A stretch of 39,825 nt of DNA, from NCBI GenBank assembly GCA_041389865.1, contig JAWKRA010000044.1, forward strand, positions 1 to 39,825. Direction: 5' to 3'. Below, piece after piece: positions 10,764-33,195 of the stretch (the first letter of the stretch is position 1; every line of letters begins with the position of its first letter). This DNA comes from Nannocystaceae bacterium (GTDB lineage: Bacteria > Myxococcota_A > Polyangia > Nannocystales > Nannocystaceae). The notes under the pieces were generated by a model that saw only the letters and a program-made list of their open reading frames with translations, was not told the origin of the DNA and made no database searches. A program made the translations under genes and the position numbers.

Positions 10764-13463
10764 GTGCCGCGAAGCGATCGCCTCCTGCTCGTCGCGTTCT
10801 TCCTCTCGGGCGCCGCGGCCCTCGGCTACGAGCTCCTGTGGACGCGGCTCCTCGCGCTCGCGCTCGGCCACGAGCTGCTCGGCGTGCTCTCCAGCGTCGC
10901 CGGCTTCTTCGCTGGGGTGAGCCTCGGCGCGGTGACGGTGCGACGGTGGCTCGCCGGTCGTGAGCCGACGCGGGTGTTCGTCGCCCTCGAGGTCGTCGCG
11001 GCCGCCTACGCGATCGCCTCGCCGTGGCTGCTCGAGCTGCTGGTCGTCCGCTTGCCGGGGTTTTTTCCAGGGGACGCGCCGCCGGGGCCGCTCGCGTCGG
11101 TGGTGATCGCCACCGTAACGCTGCTGCCAGGGACGCTGTGCCTGGGCGGGACCTTGCCGGCGCTCGTCGACGCGCGGACGCGGGCGCTGGGCGATGACGC
11201 CGGCGGCGCGCGGGGCCTCGCGCGGCTGTACGCCGCAAACACCTTCGGCGCGACGGTAGGTGTCTTGGGGACGGTACACCTTTGGCTGCCGGCGGTCGGC
11301 TTCGGCGTCGGGGCGCTCGGGCTCGCCGCGCTCGGGCTCGTCGCGGCCGGGCTCGCGCTCGCGTGGCGCCGCGGGTCGCCGCGCGTCGACGCGCCCGCGC
11401 CCGCGTCGGCGTCCGTCGACCTCTCGGGCGATCCCGACGCCGAGCTGCTCGCCGAGCCGTGGCTCCTCTACGCCGTCACCTTTGCGACCGGCCTCGCCGG
11501 CGTCGGCCTCGAGGTGGTCTCGGTGCAGATCCTCGGCCAGAACGTCGAGGGCACCGTCTACACGTTCGCCGGGATCCTCGCCGTCTACCTCGTCGGGGCC
11601 GGGATCGGGGCGGCGATCTACCAGCGCCTCGCCGCGCGGGCGATCGCGGGCCGACCGGCGACCGTGCTCGCCGGGCTGCTGCTCGCGCTCGCGGCCAGCA
11701 CCGTGCTCTCGGCCTTCGCGCTCGCCCGCAGCCCCGACATGCTCCTAGGGGCAGGTTCATCGCCGCGCTACGCCGAGGCGCTCGCGCGCGAGCTGCTGGC
11801 GGCCGCGGCCGCGCTGCTCGTGCCGACGATCCTCATGGGCGCGCTGTTCTCCCACGTGGTCGGCCTCGTCAGCGGTCTCGGCCAGCGCGCGCTCGGCCGG
11901 GCCTACGCGCTCAACACCCTGGGCGGGGCGCTCGCGCCGTTCGTGTTCGGGCTGTGGGCGGTGCCGACGCTCGGCTACACCGACGGCTTCTACGCGGTCA
12001 CCTACCTCTACCTGCTGGTGTTCGCCGGGTTCGCGTGGTTTCGCCGATTCCGGCCGTGGGTGATCATCGCCGGGGTCTTGGGGGTCGTCGCGCTCACGGC
12101 CGCAGGGCCGCGGGCCGGCGCGCTGTCGCTGGTCAAGGACGCCGAGGGCTGGGCGGTGCTCGAGCGCCGCGAGACCCTCCAAGGAGTGGTGACGGTCGCC
12201 GAGTACGAAGGACCGCGACCCGAGGGCGCGCCGCCGCTGCGACGGCTGCAGGTCAATCAACACTTCAAGATGGGCGGCGTCTACAGCTTCGGTGAGCGGC
12301 GCATGGGCCAGCTTGCGACCCTCCTCGCGCCCCCCGACGCGCGCGCGCTGTTCCTCGGGGTCGGCACGGGCGCGACCATGGGGGCCGCGCTCGAGGTCAC
12401 GCCGGGGGCGATTCGCGCGGCGACCGGGGTCGAGCTGGTCCCGGCCGTGCTCGAGCTGCTGCCGTACTTCGCGGCGACGAGCGGCGACCTCGCGCACGAG
12501 CGGCGCGCGACGCTGGTCGCCGCCGACGCCCGCCGCTACCTCGCGGCCGGGGACGCGCCGCTCGAGCTCATCGTCGCCGATCTCTTTCATCCGGCGCGTG
12601 ACGGGGCCGCGTCGCTCTACGCCCGCGAGCACTTCGCCCGGGCCCGGGCGCGGCTCTCGGATGACGGCGTCTTCGTCCAGTGGCTGCCGCTCTACCAGCT
12701 CAGCCGCGACGATCTGGCGGCGATCGTGCGCGCGTTCCTCGAGGTCTTCCCCGAGCACGCGCACGCGTTCCTCGGCTTCTACAACGTCGAGACCCCGCCG
12801 CTCGCGCTGGTCGGCTCGCGCGTCCCGGTGGTCGTCGATCCGGCGCGGGTCCAGAGCTTCGGAGCTCGTCCGTCGGCGACGATCGTCGAGGCCCGCGACC
12901 TCCTCGCCGCCCACCTCCTCGACGGCGAGGGGCTCGCGCGCTTCGTCGGTGACGGCCCGGTCCACCACGATCTCGATCCCCGGGTGCTGTTCTCGGCGCC
13001 GCGGGTCGCCTACGAAGATCCGCCCGACCTCGGCGCCCGCACGCTCGCGGCGCTGCTCGAGGTCCGCGCTCCGTACCCGCCCTCGATGGTCCCTGGCGAC
13101 GATCCGGCGCTGCGGGCCGCGACCGAGCGCTACGCCGAGGCGGTCGACGCGTACCTGCGCGGCGAATTGCTCGGGCACGCGGACGGCCCGACGGCGCCCG
13201 TGAGCGCCGCCCGACTCGAGCGGTACCTGGCGGCCTACGAGCGCGAGCCGGGCTTCCCGCCCGCCCGCGGCGCCCTGTTTCGCGCGGCCAAGAACCACCC
13301 CGAGCGCGCCGCGGCGATCTACGAGCGAATGCTCGAGCGCACCCCCGACGAGCCGCGCGTCTACCGGGCCTACGCCGAGCACCTCCGCCAACGAGGCGAC
13401 ACGCCCGGGCTCGACCGCCTGCTCGAGCGGGCCCGGGCGCGACGCGACGCGGCGACGCTGTGA
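10764..13463 (+). CDS. fused polytopic membrane domain plus spermidine-synthase-like (polyamine aminopropyltransferase fold) domain plus C-terminal TPR-like helical repeats (about 899 aa)
   Basis: The N-terminal '[19 protein letters not shown]' block and several hydrophobic helices are typical of the membrane-embedded spermidine synthase-like family. The middle has a '[16 protein letters not shown]' Rossmann-like motif and 'LIVADLFHP...DGVFVQW'. The C-terminus has repeated helical hairpins ('[12 protein letters not shown]...', '[26 protein letters not shown]'). The start is a GTG at 10764 with no clear Shine-Dalgarno-like motif, so the 5' end is uncertain. Confidence 0.7.
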
Positions 13464-28194: not shown

Positions 28195-28387
28195 GCCGTG
28201 AAGAGTGGCACGCCACCTGCATGGAACGACGCTATCGTGACAGGCCGGTCCTGAGATTGACTTGTGAAGCCGTTGTAGATCCCATCATGCAGATTTCGTC
28301 CTGTGCGTGATCAACGGAGTTTCGTCGCGCAGGAACGAACCTTGATTCCAGGCGCAAAACTGCTGTTCCTCGAGCCCGAGCGGCGTC

Positions 28388-29161
28388 CTACTCCGGCACC
28401 GCTTGACCGATGCACATGCGGCAGCTCACGCCACCGCTGGCGGTGATCGAAGGCTGCAAAACGCCGTGCTCCGCGAGCTGTGCTTCGACCGCGTCGAGCT
28501 GGCTCACGTCGAGCTGCGGCACCAGGCGTCGGGGATCGTCGCCGCGGCGCCGAGCGAGGGCCGCGAGCCCGTAGACGGTGGGGTAGAAGGCCGTGACCCG
28601 CAGGGTGCGGCTGTGCCGGCAGATCAGGGTCGGCGTCGGGGCGCGCTCCGGGGGCGGCGTCGCCGGATCGGTGAGCGCCTGGGCGTACTCCGGGATCTTG
28701 CAGCTGGCCGCCTGGCGGACGAAGACGCGGTGGTCGAGGCCGTCGGGGAGCGTCCCGGCGGGCAGCTCGTCGCTGGCGACGTGGGCTAGAAGCGCAGCCA
28801 GTAGTAGTCCGCGATCTCCTCCCAGAGCGGCTCGATGCGCGGATCGCTCTGGCGGCATGGGCCCGGGTAGTCGGAGAACGGCGCGGCGAAGGTGTTAGGG
28901 TTGCGGGCGGTGGCCGGGTGGGCGTCGCTGAAGTCGTCGACGAAGCCGGTCCCACAGCAGCGCGCAGGTGGGTGATCCGCGCGCACAGGGCCGAACGCTC
29001 CGGCGCAGGATTTTGTCCATGTTGCGGCGGATCAGCACCCGGTAGAAGGCGACCCGCCGGACCCCGGACGGGCTCTCGCCGAGCGCGGCCTGGAAGGTGG
29101 CGACGTCGGTCTCGCCGGAGAGCAGGCGGCGCGCTTCGTGGAAGAACGCCGCGAGGCTCAC
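28388..29161 (-). pseudogene. DUF2063-family partner of the DUF692/MNIO enzyme (MbnC/HvfC/BufC-like), as it reads here interrupted by two +1 frameshifts
   Basis: The GTG at 29159-29161 overlaps the DUF692 stop as GTGA. Frame A reads 'VSLAAFFHEARRLLSGETDVATFQAALGESPSGVRRVAFYRVLIRRNMDKILRR...' (DUF2063-like N-terminus, compare 'RFAVYRNNV'). High-GC3 coding then continues in the +1 frame ('TGFVDDFSDAHPATARNPNTFAAPFSDYPGP...LWEEIADYYWLRF') and again in the next +1 frame ('AHVASDELPAGTLPDGLDHRVFVRQAASCKIPEYAQAL...CRMCIGQAVPE*'). The frame switches fall near short homopolymer runs (tggg at about 28950; gccc at about 28785). These could be real, giving a pseudogene, or assembly indels. Confidence 0.5.
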
Positions 29162-30012
29162 ACGGCCACCTCCGCGCGGACCGCATCGCGGACGGCGTAC
29201 CCCGCCGCGACCTCGCGCGCCCGATCGAGCTGGTCGAGGACCGTGTCGAGGTCGGGGATGTCGGTGTCCCACTCGAGCAGGGTCGGCGGGACCTCGCCGA
29301 GCCGCTCGATCGTCGCCCGGTACAGCCCCCAGACGCCGTCGCAGACCGGGGCGCCGTGGTTGTCGATGTACATGTCGCGCTCGACGATGTAGCCGGCGAG
29401 GTGGACCTGGCGGGTGCGCTCGACCGGGAGCGCGGCGAGGGCCGCGAACGGGTCCTGCTGGAAGTTGTGGGCGTTGACCTGGACGTTGTTGACGTCGAGC
29501 AGCAGGCCGCAGTCCGCCTCCTCGAGCACGGCGGTGATGAACGCCTCCTCGCTCATCGTGCCGCCCGGCATGATCGCGTAGTAGGAGATGTTCTCGAGCG
29601 CGAGCGGCCGCTCCATCCGATCGGCGAGCTCGCGGGCGCGCGCGGCCACGTGGCGCACGGCCTCCTCGGTGCGCGGCAGCGGCAGCAGGTCGTGGAAGCG
29701 TCGGCCGTCGATGGCCGCGTAGCACAGGTGATCGGTGAAGTAGGGCGGGTCGAGGTAGTCGAGCAGCGCCTTGAGCCCCTTGAGGTGCTCGGGATCAAAG
29801 GGATCGGGGCCGCCGACCGAGGTCGAGACGCCGTGCGAGACCACCGGCCAGCGCTCGCGCACCCGGGCCAGGATGTCGCGCTGCAGGCCGCCGTAGCCGA
29901 CGTAGTTCTCCGGGATGATCTCGAACCAGTCGATCGCGCGCGGGGTCGTGAAGACATCCCGGTAGTGGGGTCTTCGCAGACCGATCCCGAAGCCAGCAGG
30001 CGCGCGCTGCAT
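29158..30012 (-). CDS. DUF692 family enzyme (MbnB/TglH/ChrH/BufB-type multinuclear non-heme iron oxidative enzyme, MNIO; TIM-barrel fold)
   Basis: 'GFGIGLRRPHYRDVFTTPRAIDWFEIIPENYVGYGG' is the DUF692 N-terminal signature. 'HGVSTSVGGPDPFD', 'DHLCYAA', 'LALENISYY', 'CGLLLDVNNVQVNAHN' and 'VHLAGY...IDNHGAPV' match conserved blocks of MbnB-like proteins. The ATG at 30010-30012 gives MQRAPAGFGIGLR. The GTG at 30114 is the ORF-track alternative; it adds a Pro/Arg-rich 34 aa and is less likely. Confidence 0.88.
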   Translation of the reverse strand: MQRAPAGFGIGLRRPHYRDVFTTPRAIDWFEIIPENYVGYGGLQRDILARVRERWPVVSHGVSTSVGGPDPFDPEHLKGLKALLDYLDPPYFTDHLCYAAIDGRRFHDLLPLPRTEEAVRHVAARARELADRMERPLALENISYYAIMPGGTMSEEAFITAVLEEADCGLLLDVNNVQVNAHNFQQDPFAALAALPVERTRQVHLAGYIVERDMYIDNHGAPVCDGVWGLYRATIERLGEVPPTLLEWDTDIPDLDTVLDQLDRAREVAAGYAVRDAVRAEVAV

Positions 30013-30132
30013 AAGAGAGACGATAACACGCTGTGGTCGCGCCCACGGCTCGCAGGGGAGCGGAGATCGCGGGTCACGACGAGGCGGCGCGGGCCCCTGC
30101 GGACCCGCGCTCACCTACGTTGTCACAGCTCG

Positions 30133-30750
30133 TCAGCAGGTCGGGGCCGCGTCGATGCACGCCGAGTAGTCGGCGCCGCCGTCGCCACACTCGCCCATGA
30201 CGCACTCGAGCAGGCCCATGTTGACCTCGGCCTGGTTGTCGCAGACCTCGGTGATCTCGTTGCACTTCGACTCGCAGTCGGCGACGCCGTCCGGGTCGAG
30301 GAGCTCGCACTCGCCCATCTTGCTGCACCCGTCGAGGCAGACCTGGATGGTCTCCATGAGCAGGGCGCCGTCGGTGTCGGTGCTCGGGCAGCCCGTGGTC
30401 GGGCAGGCGGTCGTCGGGCAGCCCGTGGTCGGGCAGGCGGTCGTCGGGCAGGCGGTCGTCGGACAGCCAGTCGTCGGACAGCCGGTCGTCGGACAGCCGG
30501 CGGTCGGGCACGCTGCGGTTGGGCAGCCAGCGGTCGGACATCCGGCGGTCGGGCAGCCCGTGGTCGGGCAGCCGGCGGTGGTGCCTGTCTCGGTGGTCGG
30601 ACAGCCGGCGGTCGGGCAGCCAGCGCTGGCGGTGTCGGTCGTCTCGGTGTCGGTGCCGCTCTCGGTCGTGTTCTTGTCGTCGCCGCAGCCAGCGACGACC
30701 GTCGCGGTGAGAGCCGCCGCCGCGAGTATCGAATCCAGGTTTTTGAGCAT
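30133..30750 (-). CDS. Cys-repeat lipoprotein immediately upstream of DUF692; candidate Sec-exported RiPP-type precursor/substrate (205 aa)
   Basis: The ATG at 30748-30750 has GAGG 9 nt upstream. The signal MLKNLDSILAAAALTATVVAGCGDD has a VAGC lipobox. It is followed by about 16 tandem (A/T)GCPT(T/A) units ('AGCPTAGCPTTETGTTAGCPTTGCPTAGCPTAGCPTAACPTAGCPTTGCPTTGCPTTACPTTACPTTGCPTTACPTTGCPS'). A 75-aa Cys-rich tail follows ('CLDGCSKMGECELLDPDGVADCESKCNEITEVCDNQ...'). The ORF-track version (398 aa) has an Arg-rich spurious N-terminus. Confidence 0.75.
   Translation of the reverse strand: MLKNLDSILAAAALTATVVAGCGDDKNTTESGTDTETTDTASAGCPTAGCPTTETGTTAGCPTTGCPTAGCPTAGCPTAACPTAGCPTTGCPTTGCPTTACPTTACPTTGCPTTACPTTGCPSTDTDGALLMETIQVCLDGCSKMGECELLDPDGVADCESKCNEITEVCDNQAEVNMGLLECVMGECGDGGADYSACIDAAPTC
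30385..30620. repeat. 15-nt tandem DNA repeats (ggtcgggcagSCSgt) encoding the GCPT(T/A) pentapeptide array
   Basis: Direct reading shows gggcagcccgtggtcgggcaggcggtcgtcgggcagcccgtggtcgggcaggcggtcgtc... with a 15-nt period over about 235 nt. Confidence 0.75.
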
Positions 30751-30914: not shown

Positions 30915-31979
30915 TCAGTCGAGCTCGACCTCGGCGCACGGCGTCAGCGCGTCCGCGAACGCGTTGAGGCCGGCTTCGTCGAGTCGCTCCAGCAAGTACG
31001 CGCGCGCTCGACACAGATCGCGAGCGCGTGGCTCTCCTTCGGCCAGCGACGCCGCGAGGTCGAAGATGGCGATCGGCACGCCGCGATCCGGGCACTGCGG
31101 AGGCGCGCTCGCGTGCGCGCCCGGGAGCGCCGGCGCGTCGCCGCAGCGATGGGTGATGGCGGGGTCCTTGAGGTTGAGGTCGTGTCGCCGATAGTCCTCG
31201 ATCGGCGCGCGATCGCGGAGCACGGTCTCGATCGTGTAGAGCCCGCTGGCGTCCGTGGCCCGGTGCACAGGACCCTTGGCGTGCAGCGTCTCGGCCTCGG
31301 CCAGCCGCGGCGTGTGGCACGGCGCGCACTGATTGATGCCGCGAAACCGCCGTTCGAACGCCTCACGCTGGGTGGGCTTCATGTTCTTGACCTGCTCGGT
31401 GGTCGCCAGGAACTCGAGCATCCGACGCGTGACCTCGGCCTGCTGCTCGGGATCGCCGCGATCCCACTCAAAGCCGCGCAGGCGGGCGTTGGGCTGGGCC
31501 TGCTCGGGTCGCAGCACGCGGAAGCGCTCGCGGCCGTCGGGACCAAACACGGTGCCGCGCACGTCGGCGATCTGGCGGCGCGGGCCGTGGCCGAGGAACT
31601 CGATGCGATCGGCGTGGGTCCCCTGCGGGTAGCGCAGGGTGTGGCGTTTCTGGTCAGGGAGATACTCGGTCGTGATCACGCCGCCTTCGGGGATCTTGAT
31701 CCAGATCTCGATCTGCTCGAGGACGGGGCTCGTCGACGGCAGCCGTGCGGGCGGGATCATTCGAATGTAGCCGGCGTCGCGCCAGAACGACTCGGGATCC
31801 TCCACAGAGATCTCGACGATGCCTCGGGCGGTGCCCGAGAGATCCGCGCGCTCCGCCTCGGGCGCGGGTGGAGCTTCGGGCGCGCGCGCGGTGATCCACC
31901 AGACGGCGACGCCGAGGCCGAGCGCCACGATCGCGACGAACAGCCAGCGGGTGCGACTCGTGCGGGAGGCGTCCGCCAT
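30915..31979 (-). CDS. membrane-anchored protein with a single CxxCH motif (possible c-type haem site), hypothetical, 354 aa
   Basis: The ATG is at 31977-31979. The N-terminal TM helix is 'WLFVAIVALGLGVAVWWI'. 'INQCAPCHTPRL' is a CxxCH motif, and further Cys are at 'HRCGD' and 'PQCPD'. The gene is co-directional with, and 52 bp downstream of, the P460-like gene. Confidence 0.5.
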   Translation of the reverse strand: MADASRTSRTRWLFVAIVALGLGVAVWWITARAPEAPPAPEAERADLSGTARGIVEISVEDPESFWRDAGYIRMIPPARLPSTSPVLEQIEIWIKIPEGGVITTEYLPDQKRHTLRYPQGTHADRIEFLGHGPRRQIADVRGTVFGPDGRERFRVLRPEQAQPNARLRGFEWDRGDPEQQAEVTRRMLEFLATTEQVKNMKPTQREAFERRFRGINQCAPCHTPRLAEAETLHAKGPVHRATDASGLYTIETVLRDRAPIEDYRRHDLNLKDPAITHRCGDAPALPGAHASAPPQCPDRGVPIAIFDLAASLAEGEPRARDLCRARAYLLERLDEAGLNAFADALTPCAEVELD

Positions 31980-32031
31980 GCGACTCTCGCTTGATAGCGA
32001 GGGCCGGGCGCGAACGCCAGCCCGAAACCTG

Positions 32032-32634
32032 TCAGGGGACCTGATCGGCGGCGTCGATGCCTCTCGCCCAGTCCGACGGCGCGGCCGGCATGTGGCAGCT
32101 GATGCAGAAATCGGCGGCGGGCGCGGTCCCCTTGACCGGCGTGGTGCCGTCCTCGTAGACGCGCGCCCACCACCAGTCGCCGGTGTCGGGCGCGTAGCCG
32201 GGCGGGCCCTTGTGCATCACCGTCCAGCCGCCAGGCATGGTGGCCTCGGCGTCGGCCCAGTGGCGCTTGATGAGCGTCGTGCCGACCGGGAACGTGATCG
32301 GCTGGTAGTCCATGGGATCGATCATCTTGTAGGTGGCGAGCACGTCCGGCGGCACCCAGATGTCGACGACCATCGCCATGTCGCCGTGCTGGCTGGCGAG
32401 CGGCGCGTTGTTGGCCTTGGTGAATTTTCCCTGATCGAAGTTCATCACGTCATCGAGGACCGCGTCCTCATCAACTTCGGCGGCCGTGGTCTCGGTCTCC
32501 GAGCCCGTCTCCGAGCCTGACTCGGTGGCGTCGGTGGTGCCGGCGGTCGTGTCATCGGTGCCCGAGGTGGTGTCGCCGCAGGCCGCGAGCGTTAGGATGA
32601 GGAGTGAGCGGTGGAGAACGTGCGCGTGTTGCAT
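32032..32634 (-). CDS. cytochrome P460 / cytochrome c'-beta family-like haem lipoprotein (201 aa)
   Basis: The ATG at 32632-32634 gives MQHAHVLHRSLLILTLAACGD with an LAAC lipobox. 'FPVGTTLIKRHW', 'GYAPDTGDWWWARVYEDG' and the C-terminal 'FCISCHMP' (CxxCH near the C-terminus) resemble the cytochrome P460 layout ('GTVTVKE…', 'GNWAFY…', 'C-A-A-CH'). The family call is from memory. Confidence 0.55.
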   Translation of the reverse strand: MQHAHVLHRSLLILTLAACGDTTSGTDDTTAGTTDATESGSETGSETETTAAEVDEDAVLDDVMNFDQGKFTKANNAPLASQHGDMAMVVDIWVPPDVLATYKMIDPMDYQPITFPVGTTLIKRHWADAEATMPGGWTVMHKGPPGYAPDTGDWWWARVYEDGTTPVKGTAPAADFCISCHMPAAPSDWARGIDAADQVP

Positions 32635-32724: not shown

Positions 32725-33195
32725 GTGGCGATCGAGCGTACACTCGCGCGCGTGGCTCAGCTCGGCAGCATCTTCGACGACGACGCGGCCGATGACGGCC
32801 CGCGCGGCCGCGATCTGCGGACCGAGGTGACGATTCCGGCCTGGTCGATGGGACACCCCGACGGCTACGCGGTGGCCGTGCCGATCGAGCTGCCGATCGA
32901 CGACGAGACCGCCCACCGCACCCCGTCTCCGCATGATGACGGTGAGCACATCACGCTGCGGCTCCCCGAGAGCTTCCCGGACGGAGGGACGCTGCGGCTG
33001 CGCGGGCAGGGCGAGCGCGGGCCGACCGGGCGCGTCGGCGATCTGCTGGTGACCGTGCGCATCGACGAGACCGACGCGATCGCGCGGGTGTTGCCGAGCT
33101 CGCTCGCCCAGTCCAGCAGCCCCAACAAGACCGTGATCATCGGCGTGACCGTCGCGCTCGCGGCCCTGGCGGCCGCGGTCTACGCGGCGCTTTGA
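32725..33195 (+). CDS. DnaJ C-terminal-domain-like protein with a C-terminal TM helix (no J domain), 156 aa
   Basis: 'DLRTEVTIPAWSMGHPDGYAVAVPIEL' and 'ITLRLPESFPDGGTLRLRGQGERGPTGRVGDLLVTVRID' follow the two CTD motifs of DnaJ/CbpA ('…G..LRL.GKG…GDLYV.V.V'). The C-terminal 'VIIGVTVALAALAAAVYAAL' is hydrophobic. The start is a GTG. Confidence 0.4.
   Translation: MAIERTLARVAQLGSIFDDDAADDGPRGRDLRTEVTIPAWSMGHPDGYAVAVPIELPIDDETAHRTPSPHDDGEHITLRLPESFPDGGTLRLRGQGERGPTGRVGDLLVTVRIDETDAIARVLPSSLAQSSSPNKTVIIGVTVALAALAAAVYAAL

What the first reader, a model, noticed from the sequence alone, without database searches (positions are those of the whole stretch)
30915..32634. Cytochrome P460-like lipoprotein and a CxxCH membrane protein placed directly upstream of the MNIO cluster
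P460 and c'-beta cytochromes bind NO and hydroxylamine in nitrifiers and methanotrophs. Methanotrophs are also where methanobactin, whose maturation depends on the DUF692 enzyme MbnB, is found. A P460-like gene in a myxobacterium-like genome, co-directional and tightly spaced (52 bp) with a second CxxCH protein and then the Cys-repeat/DUF692 genes, hints at a redox or copper-linked periplasmic module. Operon membership is inference, since the gaps are 52, 164 and 120 bp.
Basis: partly seen in the sequence, partly recalled or inferred. Interest (0 to 1): 0.55.

Follow-up and report, generated by a model that had tools for sequence, protein, structure and literature searches.

The report
P460-fold haem proteins partnering MNIO lipoprotein system
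Two exported haem-c-type proteins, one a true cytochrome P460 relative and the other the founder of a large unannotated family distantly related to P460, are recurrently encoded with (and sometimes fused to) the cysteine-repeat lipoprotein and the enzyme pair predicted to turn its cysteines into copper-binding rings, an association I could not find in the literature.

Summary

The link to the MNIO system is conserved:
- The family sits within two genes of MNIO/DUF2063 genes in 7 of 13 distinct loci, in three different gene orders.
- P460-like genes of this subfamily accompany the system in 7 loci.
- In three loci the P460 domain is fused to the same leader and Gly-Cys-Pro repeats as the CefA precursor.

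Most likely these are periplasmic haem partners of a membrane-tethered, MNIO-modified copper-binding lipoprotein. Their chemistry is inferred, not shown. In this MAG the DUF2063 partner gene carries two frameshifts.

The parts
32032..32634 (-). Cytochrome P460-family lipoprotein (200 aa). It has a lipobox LTLAAC, a Thr/Gly/Glu-rich linker and a P460 domain with the cross-link-position Lys123 and C177xxC180H181.
   Evidence: PF16694 scores 34.6 bits against a gathering score of 27. Profile hits to McP460, Tt c'-beta and NeP460 align K123 with Lys78/Lys70 (Table 2 of PMC11928373). GC3 is 0.91.
30915..31979 (-). 354-aa N-terminally anchored CxxCH protein ('Cx'), member of a large unannotated family. 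It has a P460-like beta-sheet domain (about residues 55-173), a helical insert, an invariant C218xxC221H222 and a C-terminal part with four more conserved Cys.
30133..30750 (-). CefA-type precursor lipoprotein (205 aa). It has an MLKNLDSIL leader, a lipobox VVAGC, about 16 x-G/A-C-P-T repeats (Cys every fifth residue) and a C-terminal 10-Cys domain.
   Evidence: NF038108 scores 35.3 bits against a cut-off of 30. Homologous leader and GCP-repeat genes occur in L004, L005, L010 and L014.
30013..30132 (-). Precursor-MNIO spacer with a strong GC-rich hairpin. It may be an intra-operon attenuator or processing site.
   Evidence: Minimum free energy is -66 kcal/mol and z is -4.57 against 200 shuffles. 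There is no U-tract, and no terminator was called.
29158..30012 (-). MNIO (DUF692) maturase, BufB/HvfB-like.
   Evidence: PF05114 scores 318 bits. NF050167 BufB scores 301.6 (cut-off 310), HvfB 264.9 and MbnB only 48.5.
28385..29162 (-). DUF2063-type partner gene, split over three reading frames by two frameshifts. It is either a pseudogene or carries MAG assembly errors.
   Evidence: A partner-protein HMM built from five other loci hits three separate frames, at 29158-29000, 28944-28789 and 28759-28457.
27019..28194 (-). Lipoprotein with a choice-of-anchor-L domain. It is a conserved downstream neighbour; membership of the system is uncertain.
   Evidence: NF038133 scores 36.1 bits. It is 72% identical to the gene in the same position in L010.
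32725..33195 (+). Divergently transcribed C-terminally anchored protein with a DnaJ_C-like segment. It is a conserved upstream neighbour; membership is uncertain.
   Evidence: PF01556 scores 25.6 bits, just under the cut-off. It is 42% identical to the gene in the same position in L010.

Best explanation
The two genes encode exported, membrane-tethered haem-c proteins of the cytochrome P460/c'-beta fold. They are dedicated accessory components of a bufferin-like MNIO system.

Proposed sequence of events:
1. In the cytoplasm the MNIO enzyme and its DUF2063 partner convert the cysteines of the Gly-Cys-Pro repeats of the CefA lipoprotein into 5-thiooxazole-type copper ligands. This is inferred from BufB homology.
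2. The product is exported by Sec and lipidated, giving a multi-site metal binder on the periplasmic face of the membrane.
3. The P460-type lipoprotein keeps the cross-link Lys but lacks the loop that carries the hydroxylamine-oxidase carboxylate. The Cx protein has Arg in place of that Lys. Both receive haem in the periplasm and work next to the tether as its redox partners. The likely chemistry is electron exchange with bound copper, or with a small oxidant.

Shown here: gene identities, family membership, conserved linkage, and fusion of the P460 domain to the repeat tether.
Inferred: the thiooxazole chemistry, copper binding, haem attachment and the redox reaction itself.
For: Identity: P460 passes the Pfam threshold, with the cross-link Lys aligned. 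CxxCH and its His are invariant in 131 aligned Cx-family members. The only PDB sequence matches of the Cx profile are haem-binding sites of c-type cytochromes.

Linkage:
- P460, Cx, CefA, MNIO, DUF2063 in the window and L010. The same start of the order is seen in L004 and L005, where the contigs end.
- Cx, MNIO, DUF2063 in L001 and L011.
- Cx, MNIO, DUF2063, GCP-repeat gene, P460, second P460-like gene in L014.
- Repeat-P460 fusion, MNIO, DUF2063, Cx in L013.
- MNIO, DUF2063, Cx in L016.
- MNIO, DUF2063, P460 in L021.

Fusion: in L006, L010 and L013 a P460-like domain carries the MLKNL-type leader, a lipobox and 3-4 GCPG repeats. L006 is in the same genome as L011, whose MNIO locus has no precursor gene.

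Copper context: one non-MNIO family member lies between SCO1/SenC and a Cu/Zn superoxide dismutase. BufB-type MNIOs make copper-binding thiooxazoles on Sec-exported precursors (PMC11626156). MNIO-modified lipoproteins are established (PMC13056109).
Against: - No experiment or transcript data exist.
- Haem attachment is inferred from the motif and fold only.
- Four Cx-family loci show no MNIO nearby (L012, L017, L018, L019), so the family is not obligately MNIO-linked.
- Most linked loci appear to come from related Myxococcota-type organisms, so part of the synteny may be inherited rather than independently selected.
- Characterised P460 haems have low potentials and act on N-oxides, not metals (PMC11928373).
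- The DUF2063 gene in this window is frameshifted, so the system may be inactive in this MAG.
- Nothing shows that the GCP cysteines are modified or bind copper.
Confidence: 0.5

Rival explanations
1. The haem proteins are periplasmic tailoring enzymes. They oxidatively finish or cross-link the exported CefA or P460-repeat lipoprotein, or build a metal site on a partner, as the dihaem MauG-like MbnH does for MbnP in methanobactin operons (the MbnH/MbnP comparison is from my own knowledge). On this view they are biosynthetic enzymes, not working partners of the mature product.
For: One family member (P0101, 1544 aa) carries a CCP_MauG dihaem peroxidase and a RoxA-like module on the same polypeptide as a C-terminal Cx domain. 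The invariant polar residues R125, R141 and D243, with no invariant second axial ligand, suit an open catalytic haem. The P460 haem is itself made by a peroxide-dependent protein modification (PMC11928373).
Against: There is no evidence for any further modification. The P460 domain fused downstream of the repeats looks more like a working module than an enzyme-substrate pair. P0101 could be a gene-calling fusion. Cx also occurs away from MNIO genes.
Confidence: 0.2
2. The P460-like and Cx proteins handle nitrogen oxides (NO, hydroxylamine), as characterised P460 and c'-beta proteins do. They are merely co-regulated with a copper-buffering system because both respond to the same envelope stress.
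For: P460 family membership with the cross-link Lys conserved. Known members bind NO and oxidise NH2OH (PMC11928373).
Against: In both active P460s the proton-relay carboxylate needed for NH2OH oxidation (Glu96/Asp102) lies in a loop that is absent from the window protein (Table 2 of PMC11928373). Physical fusion to the GCP repeats in three loci argues for more than co-regulation. No nitrification or denitrification genes lie in the window.
Confidence: 0.15
3. The 354-aa Cx protein is itself a protein substrate of the MNIO enzyme. Its conserved cysteines, not a haem, are what matters.
For: In L001, L011 and L014 the Cx gene sits immediately upstream of the MNIO gene, the position of the precursor in bufABC operons (PMC12452194). 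Cx has six conserved Cys and an export signal. MNIOs are known to modify whole proteins (PMC13056109). No other precursor is seen in L001 or L011.
Against: The His of CxxCH is invariant and the motif follows a helix, as in c-type cytochromes. The P460-like fold points the same way. In L013 and L016 the gene follows DUF2063 instead. Dedicated GCP-repeat precursors coexist with Cx in the window, L010 and L014. The 'missing' precursor of the L011 genome is found elsewhere as a repeat-P460 fusion.
Confidence: 0.1
4. The adjacency is fortuitous: two unrelated periplasmic cytochrome genes happen to lie upstream of a RiPP cluster.
For: Gaps of 52-164 bp do not prove an operon, and no promoter or terminator evidence was found either way.
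Against: The same components recur in at least eight loci, in several gene orders and as fusions.
Confidence: 0.03

Closest known systems
Cytochrome P460 / cytochrome c'-beta superfamily (PF16694; NeP460 2je3, McP460 6hiu, McCP-beta, TtCP-beta 7ead)
   Different: The 200-aa protein is a lipoprotein with a long linker, lacks the loop carrying the catalytic carboxylate, and sits in a RiPP-type cluster rather than a nitrogen-cycle context. The 354-aa protein is twice the size and has a roughly 45-residue helical insert before CxxCH. It has Arg where P460 has Lys and c'-beta has Phe/Met, has four extra conserved Cys, and is not detected by the Pfam model.
Bufferin / oxazolin systems (BufA-BufB-BufC-DoxX; HvfABC)
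   Same: The MNIO enzyme is closest to BufB/HvfB. There is a DUF2063-type partner and a Sec-exported Cys-motif precursor. The expected product is a periplasmic copper-binding thiooxazole peptide or protein.
   Different: The precursor is a lipoprotein with GCP repeats (CefA type), not DUF2282, BUF_6/12Cys or EGKCG. No DoxX or sigma/anti-sigma genes were seen near it. Two P460-fold haem proteins accompany the system, which the MNIO landscape survey does not report; it mentions only rare Buf1|Cytochrom_C|FGE-sulfatase fusions.
RiPP-lipoprotein hybrids (DAG-RiPPs) and the uncharacterised lipoprotein 'CxxxxC' precursor cluster (PMC13056109; PMC12452194)
   Same: A lipobox-bearing precursor lies next to an MNIO gene, and a Cys-every-fifth spacing equals CxxxxC.
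   Different: The characterised DAG-RiPPs are made by ChrH-type MNIOs. The CxxxxC group is only predicted, and no haem partner or P460 fusion is described for it.
MbnH/MbnP of methanobactin operons (from my own knowledge)
   Same: Periplasmic haem-containing accessory proteins are encoded with an MNIO-based copper-chelator pathway.
   Different: MbnH is a dihaem MauG/CCP-type enzyme and MbnP a copper protein; neither has the P460 fold. The MNIO here is not MbnB-like (48.5 bits against a 325 cut-off).

Membership tests
Cytochrome P460 family (200-aa protein) | Scores above the curated threshold of PF16694 | tested here: met
   34.6 bits against a gathering score of 27, covering profile positions 19-122 of 125. 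A profile of ten cluster homologues hits McP460 at E 6.7e-6 and Tt c'-beta at 2.2e-4.
Cytochrome P460 family (200-aa protein) | Single CxxCH haem-c attachment motif near the C-terminus, and export to the periplasm | tested here: met
   C177-I-S-C180-H181 out of 200 aa; lipoprotein signal LTLAAC. The motif is invariant in ten homologues.
Cytochrome P460 proper (as opposed to c'-beta) | Lys at the haem cross-link position (NeP460 Lys70, McP460 Lys78); c'-beta has Phe/Met there | tested here: met
   K123 in TLIKRHW aligns with K78 in AILVKLSW of 6hiu and with the Lys in TVTVKE of NeP460. Tt c'-beta has Phe there (Table 2 of PMC11928373). The Lys is invariant in all ten cluster homologues. The cross-link itself is not shown.
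Hydroxylamine-oxidising P460 | Distal proton-relay carboxylate (Glu96 in NeP460, Asp102 in McP460) | tested here: not met
   In both alignments the carboxylate lies in an insertion ('qad', 'dyigleas') that has no counterpart in the window protein. This rests on alignment only.
Cytochrome P460 family | Covalently bound haem with a P460-type spectrum | not testable with these tools
   Needs expression, haem staining and UV-visible spectroscopy or mass spectrometry.
P460/c'-beta superfamily (354-aa Cx protein) | Detected by the family sequence model | tested here: not met
   No PF16694 hit at E<=0.1. phmmer and profile searches of the PDB give no P460 hit.
P460/c'-beta superfamily (354-aa Cx protein) | Shares the beta-sheet fold, with CxxCH following it | tested here: inconclusive
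P460/c'-beta superfamily (354-aa Cx protein) | Residue at the cross-link position | tested here: not met
   The invariant Arg125 aligns with the P460 Lys. It is therefore neither P460-type (Lys) nor a known c'-beta type (Phe/Met).
CefA, Cys-every-fifth RiPP precursor (NF038108) | Score above the curated cut-off and adjacency to an MNIO gene | tested here: met
   35.3 bits against 30, and 120 bp upstream of the MNIO gene. Homologues in other loci have a 7-residue GCPG period and do not hit the model.
BufB, bufferin maturase equivalog (NF050167) | Score above the equivalog cut-off | tested here: not met
   301.6 bits against 310. Superfamily membership is clear (PF05114, 318 bits).
Bufferin biosynthetic cluster (bufABCD) | DUF2282 or BUF_6/12Cys precursor, DUF2063 partner, DoxX | tested here: not met
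   The precursor is of a different type. The partner is present but frameshifted. No DoxX was found among the neighbouring ORFs scanned.
Methanobactin system (MbnB, TIGR04159) | MbnB equivalog score | tested here: not met
   48.5 bits against a cut-off of 325.

The most novel reading that the evidence does not exclude
P460-fold haem domains and MNIO-made thiooxazole (copper-binding) tethers form a previously unrecognised two-cofactor periplasmic machine. A haem sits on, or next to, a lipid-anchored string of copper sites. The Cx family would be a new, Arg-type branch of the P460 superfamily with its own chemistry, for example copper-coupled oxidation or reduction of a small molecule or of Cu itself. 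P460-type haems would then have a major role outside the nitrogen cycle.
Probability: 0.3. Interest if true: 0.85.

Novelty: new variant of a known kind. Interest (0 to 1): 0.66.

Why it matters
Cytochromes P460 are treated as nitrogen-cycle enzymes of nitrifiers and methanotrophs. MNIO/bufferin systems are treated as self-contained copper buffers. This locus and its relatives tie the two together genetically, in three cases on one polypeptide. They also expose a family of at least 351 clusters (at 50% identity) of CxxCH proteins that has no annotation and looks like a third, Arg-bearing branch of the P460 fold.

If the link is functional, it gives a concrete hypothesis for what non-nitrifier P460 homologues do. 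It also suggests a new accessory layer for MNIO-made metallophores. The system is readily testable by co-expressing the five genes from an intact locus such as L010.

Tried and rejected
Only the four-sequence alignment worked, and it found three loci.
- The word-indexed homologue search with the family profile returned only six proteins. Neighbourhood sampling of distant members was therefore limited to the twelve contig look-ups.
- The AlphaFold-database fold library was unavailable. Foldseek against the PDB gave nothing significant.
- The first structure model, made from a four-sequence alignment, was poor (pLDDT 66) and was replaced.
- Promoter/terminator and Rfam scans were uninformative.
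- A literature search for 'CefA' was swamped by cephalosporin papers.
- I rejected P0098 as a true DUF2063-Cx fusion. The junction is Arg-rich out-of-frame-looking sequence followed by an internal lipoprotein signal. It is probably two adjacent genes read through, which still shows adjacency.
- I rejected the Cys-rich 'GRDCGC' frames downstream of the MNIO genes in L001 and L011 as precursors. They are the reverse frame of a Pro/Gln-rich repeat protein and lack a start or signal.
- I considered whether the conserved MLKNL leader is the MNIO recognition element. In bufferin 1 the signal peptide is dispensable for modification (PMC11626156), so this stays speculative.
Full report
**What is there.** The window is a 70% GC contig of a Nannocystaceae MAG. 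On the minus strand, reading 5' to 3':
- a 200-aa ORF at 32634-32032;
- a 52-bp gap;
- a 354-aa ORF at 31979-30915;
- a 164-bp gap;
- a 205-aa Cys-repeat ORF at 30750-30133;
- a 120-bp gap;
- an MNIO gene at 30012-29158;
- overlapping its stop, a DUF2063-type partner gene running to about 28385.

Third-position GC of 0.87-0.95 marks all of these as genuine coding frames.

**The 200-aa protein is a cytochrome P460 family member.**
- It scores 34.6 bits on PF16694, above the gathering score of 27.
- The only PDB sequence hits of the single protein are P460 or c'-beta chains.
- A profile of ten homologues from related loci finds McP460 at E 6.7e-6, Thermus c'-beta at 2.2e-4 and NeP460 at 0.02.
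- It begins with a lipoprotein signal (LTLAAC) and carries C177xxC180H181.
- In those alignments Lys123 (TLIKRHW) lines up with Lys78 of McP460 and the equivalent Lys of NeP460, whereas c'-beta has Phe. According to Table 2 of the 2025 review, this is the residue that forms the defining haem-lysine cross-link (PMC11928373). The Lys is invariant in all ten homologues.
- The carboxylate that the review lists as required for hydroxylamine oxidation (Glu96/Asp102) lies in a loop that is simply absent here.

I therefore file it as P460-type by sequence, but do not expect hydroxylamine oxidase activity.

**The 354-aa protein is not an orphan.**
- It has no Pfam, NCBIfam or PDB sequence match, and the word-indexed search found only four relatives.
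- An exhaustive profile search found 351 cluster representatives at E<=1e-3, 229 of them at E<=1e-30, almost all 290-390 aa and matched end to end.
- Every one of the 150 listed carries one CxxCH at the equivalent position, and most start with a lipobox or an anchor helix.
- In a 131-sequence alignment the invariant residues are R125, R141, C218, C221, H222, D243, C323 and C348. C279 and C296 are nearly invariant. There is no invariant Met or second His.
- The family profile's only PDB matches are the helix-plus-CxxCH haem sites of class I c-type cytochromes.

**Structure of the 354-aa protein.**
- With the deep alignment, AlphaFold2 gives a confident model: pLDDT 92.7, pTM 0.85. It has an N-terminal helix, a beta-sheet domain (about residues 55-173), helices leading to CxxCH, and a C-terminal part holding the four other Cys.
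- The scores are modest and Foldseek finds nothing.
- An independent profile-profile comparison of this family with the cluster's P460-like proteins gives 88% probability (E 2.9e-6) over the beta domain. It aligns the invariant Arg125 with the P460 cross-link Lys.

My reading is that this family is a remote, enlarged branch of the P460/c'-beta fold with Arg at the key position. That is well suggested, not proven.

**The association with the MNIO system is conserved.** I recovered 13 distinct loci for the Cx family.

| Locus | Gene order |
|---|---|
| Window | P460, Cx, CefA, MNIO, DUF2063 |
| L010 (Polyangia MAG) | same order; flanking genes also conserved |
| L004, L005 | P460, Cx, then the start of a CefA-like gene at the contig end |
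| L001 (Myxococcales), L011 (Polyangia) | Cx, MNIO, DUF2063 |
| L014 | Cx, MNIO, DUF2063, 110-aa GGCPGT-repeat lipoprotein, P460, second P460-like lipoprotein |
| L013 (31% identical Cx) | repeat-P460 fusion, MNIO, DUF2063, Cx |
| L016 | MNIO, DUF2063, Cx |

- Seven of the 13 loci therefore have MNIO/DUF2063 within two genes, in three different orders, and two more break off consistently.
- A miscalled read-through protein (P0098) shows DUF2063 directly upstream of another member.
- Four loci show no MNIO: L012, L017 (a 1.9-kb contig), L018 and L019. In L019 the gene lies between SCO1/SenC and a Cu/Zn superoxide dismutase.
- Seen from the P460 side, a metagenome scan added L021, with MNIO, DUF2063 and a P460-like lipoprotein. 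More distant P460 homologues (L022-L030) have no MNIO on their contigs.

**Fusions.** A conserved leader, M-[LIKH]-K-[NHD]-L-x-x-[IVM]-[LI], followed by a lipobox and Gly-Cys-Pro repeats, occurs in the loci only in the CefA-type genes. In three cases the same leader and 3-4 GCPG repeats are followed by a P460-like domain with its Lys and CxxCH:
- L010, the gene orthologous to the window's P460 gene;
- L013, the gene immediately upstream of MNIO;
- L006.

L006 comes from the same genome as L011, whose Cx-MNIO-DUF2063 locus has no precursor gene. This both explains the 'precursor-less' loci and ties the P460 domain physically to the predicted MNIO substrate segment.

**Mechanism.**
- The MNIO is closest to BufB (301.6 bits, just under the 310 equivalog cut-off) and HvfB. 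It is far from MbnB.
- BufB with its DUF2063 partner converts Cys to copper-binding 5-thiooxazoles on Sec-exported precursors (PMC11626156).
- MNIO-modified lipoproteins are now established, and a lipoprotein 'CxxxxC' precursor group has been predicted (PMC13056109; PMC12452194).
- I therefore propose a lipid-anchored, multi-site thiooxazole copper binder that works with two membrane-tethered P460-fold haem proteins as redox partners.
- Everything after gene identity and linkage is inference.

The rivals are periplasmic tailoring enzymes (supported by the MauG-like fusion P0101), nitrogen-oxide handling, Cx as a protein substrate, and chance. They are weighed in the rivals section.

**Novelty.** No paper in the searchable library combines P460 with MNIO, DUF692, DUF2063, bufferin or thiooxazole. 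The MNIO landscape survey and its supplements do not mention P460; the main text mentions a cytochrome only as rare Buf1|Cytochrom_C|FGE-sulfatase fusions. The library is incomplete, so this is absence of evidence only.

**Caveats.**
- In this window the DUF2063 gene is split over three frames. This is either a real pseudogene or MAG assembly error.
- Transcription was not testable. The only structural hint is a strong hairpin in the precursor-MNIO spacer (z -4.57).
- Most linked loci appear to be from Myxococcota-type genomes.

Noticed in passing
window 28385-29162 (-): The DUF2063-type MNIO partner gene is broken by two frameshifts about 210 bp apart. All three segments are homologous to intact partners, but each in a different frame. 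This is either a pseudogene or MAG assembly error.
   Followed up: partly
window 30013-30132 (-): The 120-nt spacer between the precursor and MNIO genes folds into a very stable GC hairpin (-66 kcal/mol, z -4.57). The corresponding spacer in L010 also folds better than shuffles (z -2.7) but is not the same hairpin. It may be an attenuator that sets the precursor:enzyme ratio.
   Followed up: partly
window 23271-25997 (-): A 908-aa protein has a Major Vault Protein shoulder domain (PF11978, 36.5 bits) and a weak Vault_3 repeat. This is a vault-protein-like gene in a myxobacterial MAG.
   Followed up: no
window 26269-26859 (-) and 27019-28194 (-): A TerB-domain protein and a choice-of-anchor-L lipoprotein lie just downstream of the MNIO cluster. 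Both are conserved in the same positions in L010 (57% and 72% identity), so they may belong to an extended module.
   Followed up: partly
L019 3-3265: A Cx-family gene without a nearby MNIO sits between an SCO1/SenC copper chaperone gene and BNR_2 plus Cu/Zn superoxide dismutase genes. This is independent copper context for the family.
   Followed up: partly
P0101 (1544 aa; MAG labelled Alphaproteobacteria): A giant protein combines Ig-like/PKD domains, a beta-propeller, a CCP_MauG dihaem peroxidase and a RoxA-like cytochrome module with a C-terminal Cx domain (residues 1250-1541). I did not check whether it is a true fusion.
   Followed up: no
L013 3510-5766: Upstream of the repeat-P460 fusion lie a YceI protein, a 395-aa protein with a CASCH motif, and a 175-aa CTLCH protein ending in a MYXO-CTERM-like sorting signal. 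The neighbourhood is rich in haem motifs.
   Followed up: no
window 30133-30380 (-) and L010 9420-9614: The CefA proteins of the window and L010 end in a roughly 80-residue acidic domain with about 10 Cys that matches no family. The L014 homologue lacks it, and in L006, L010 and L013 a P460 domain takes its place.
   Followed up: partly
L001 13172-14767 (-) and L011 about 11222-12697 (-): A lipoprotein with a very long Pro/Gln/Arg-rich repeat tail lies downstream of the MNIO-DUF2063 genes in both precursor-less loci. Its reverse frame mimics a Cys-rich repeat.
   Followed up: partly
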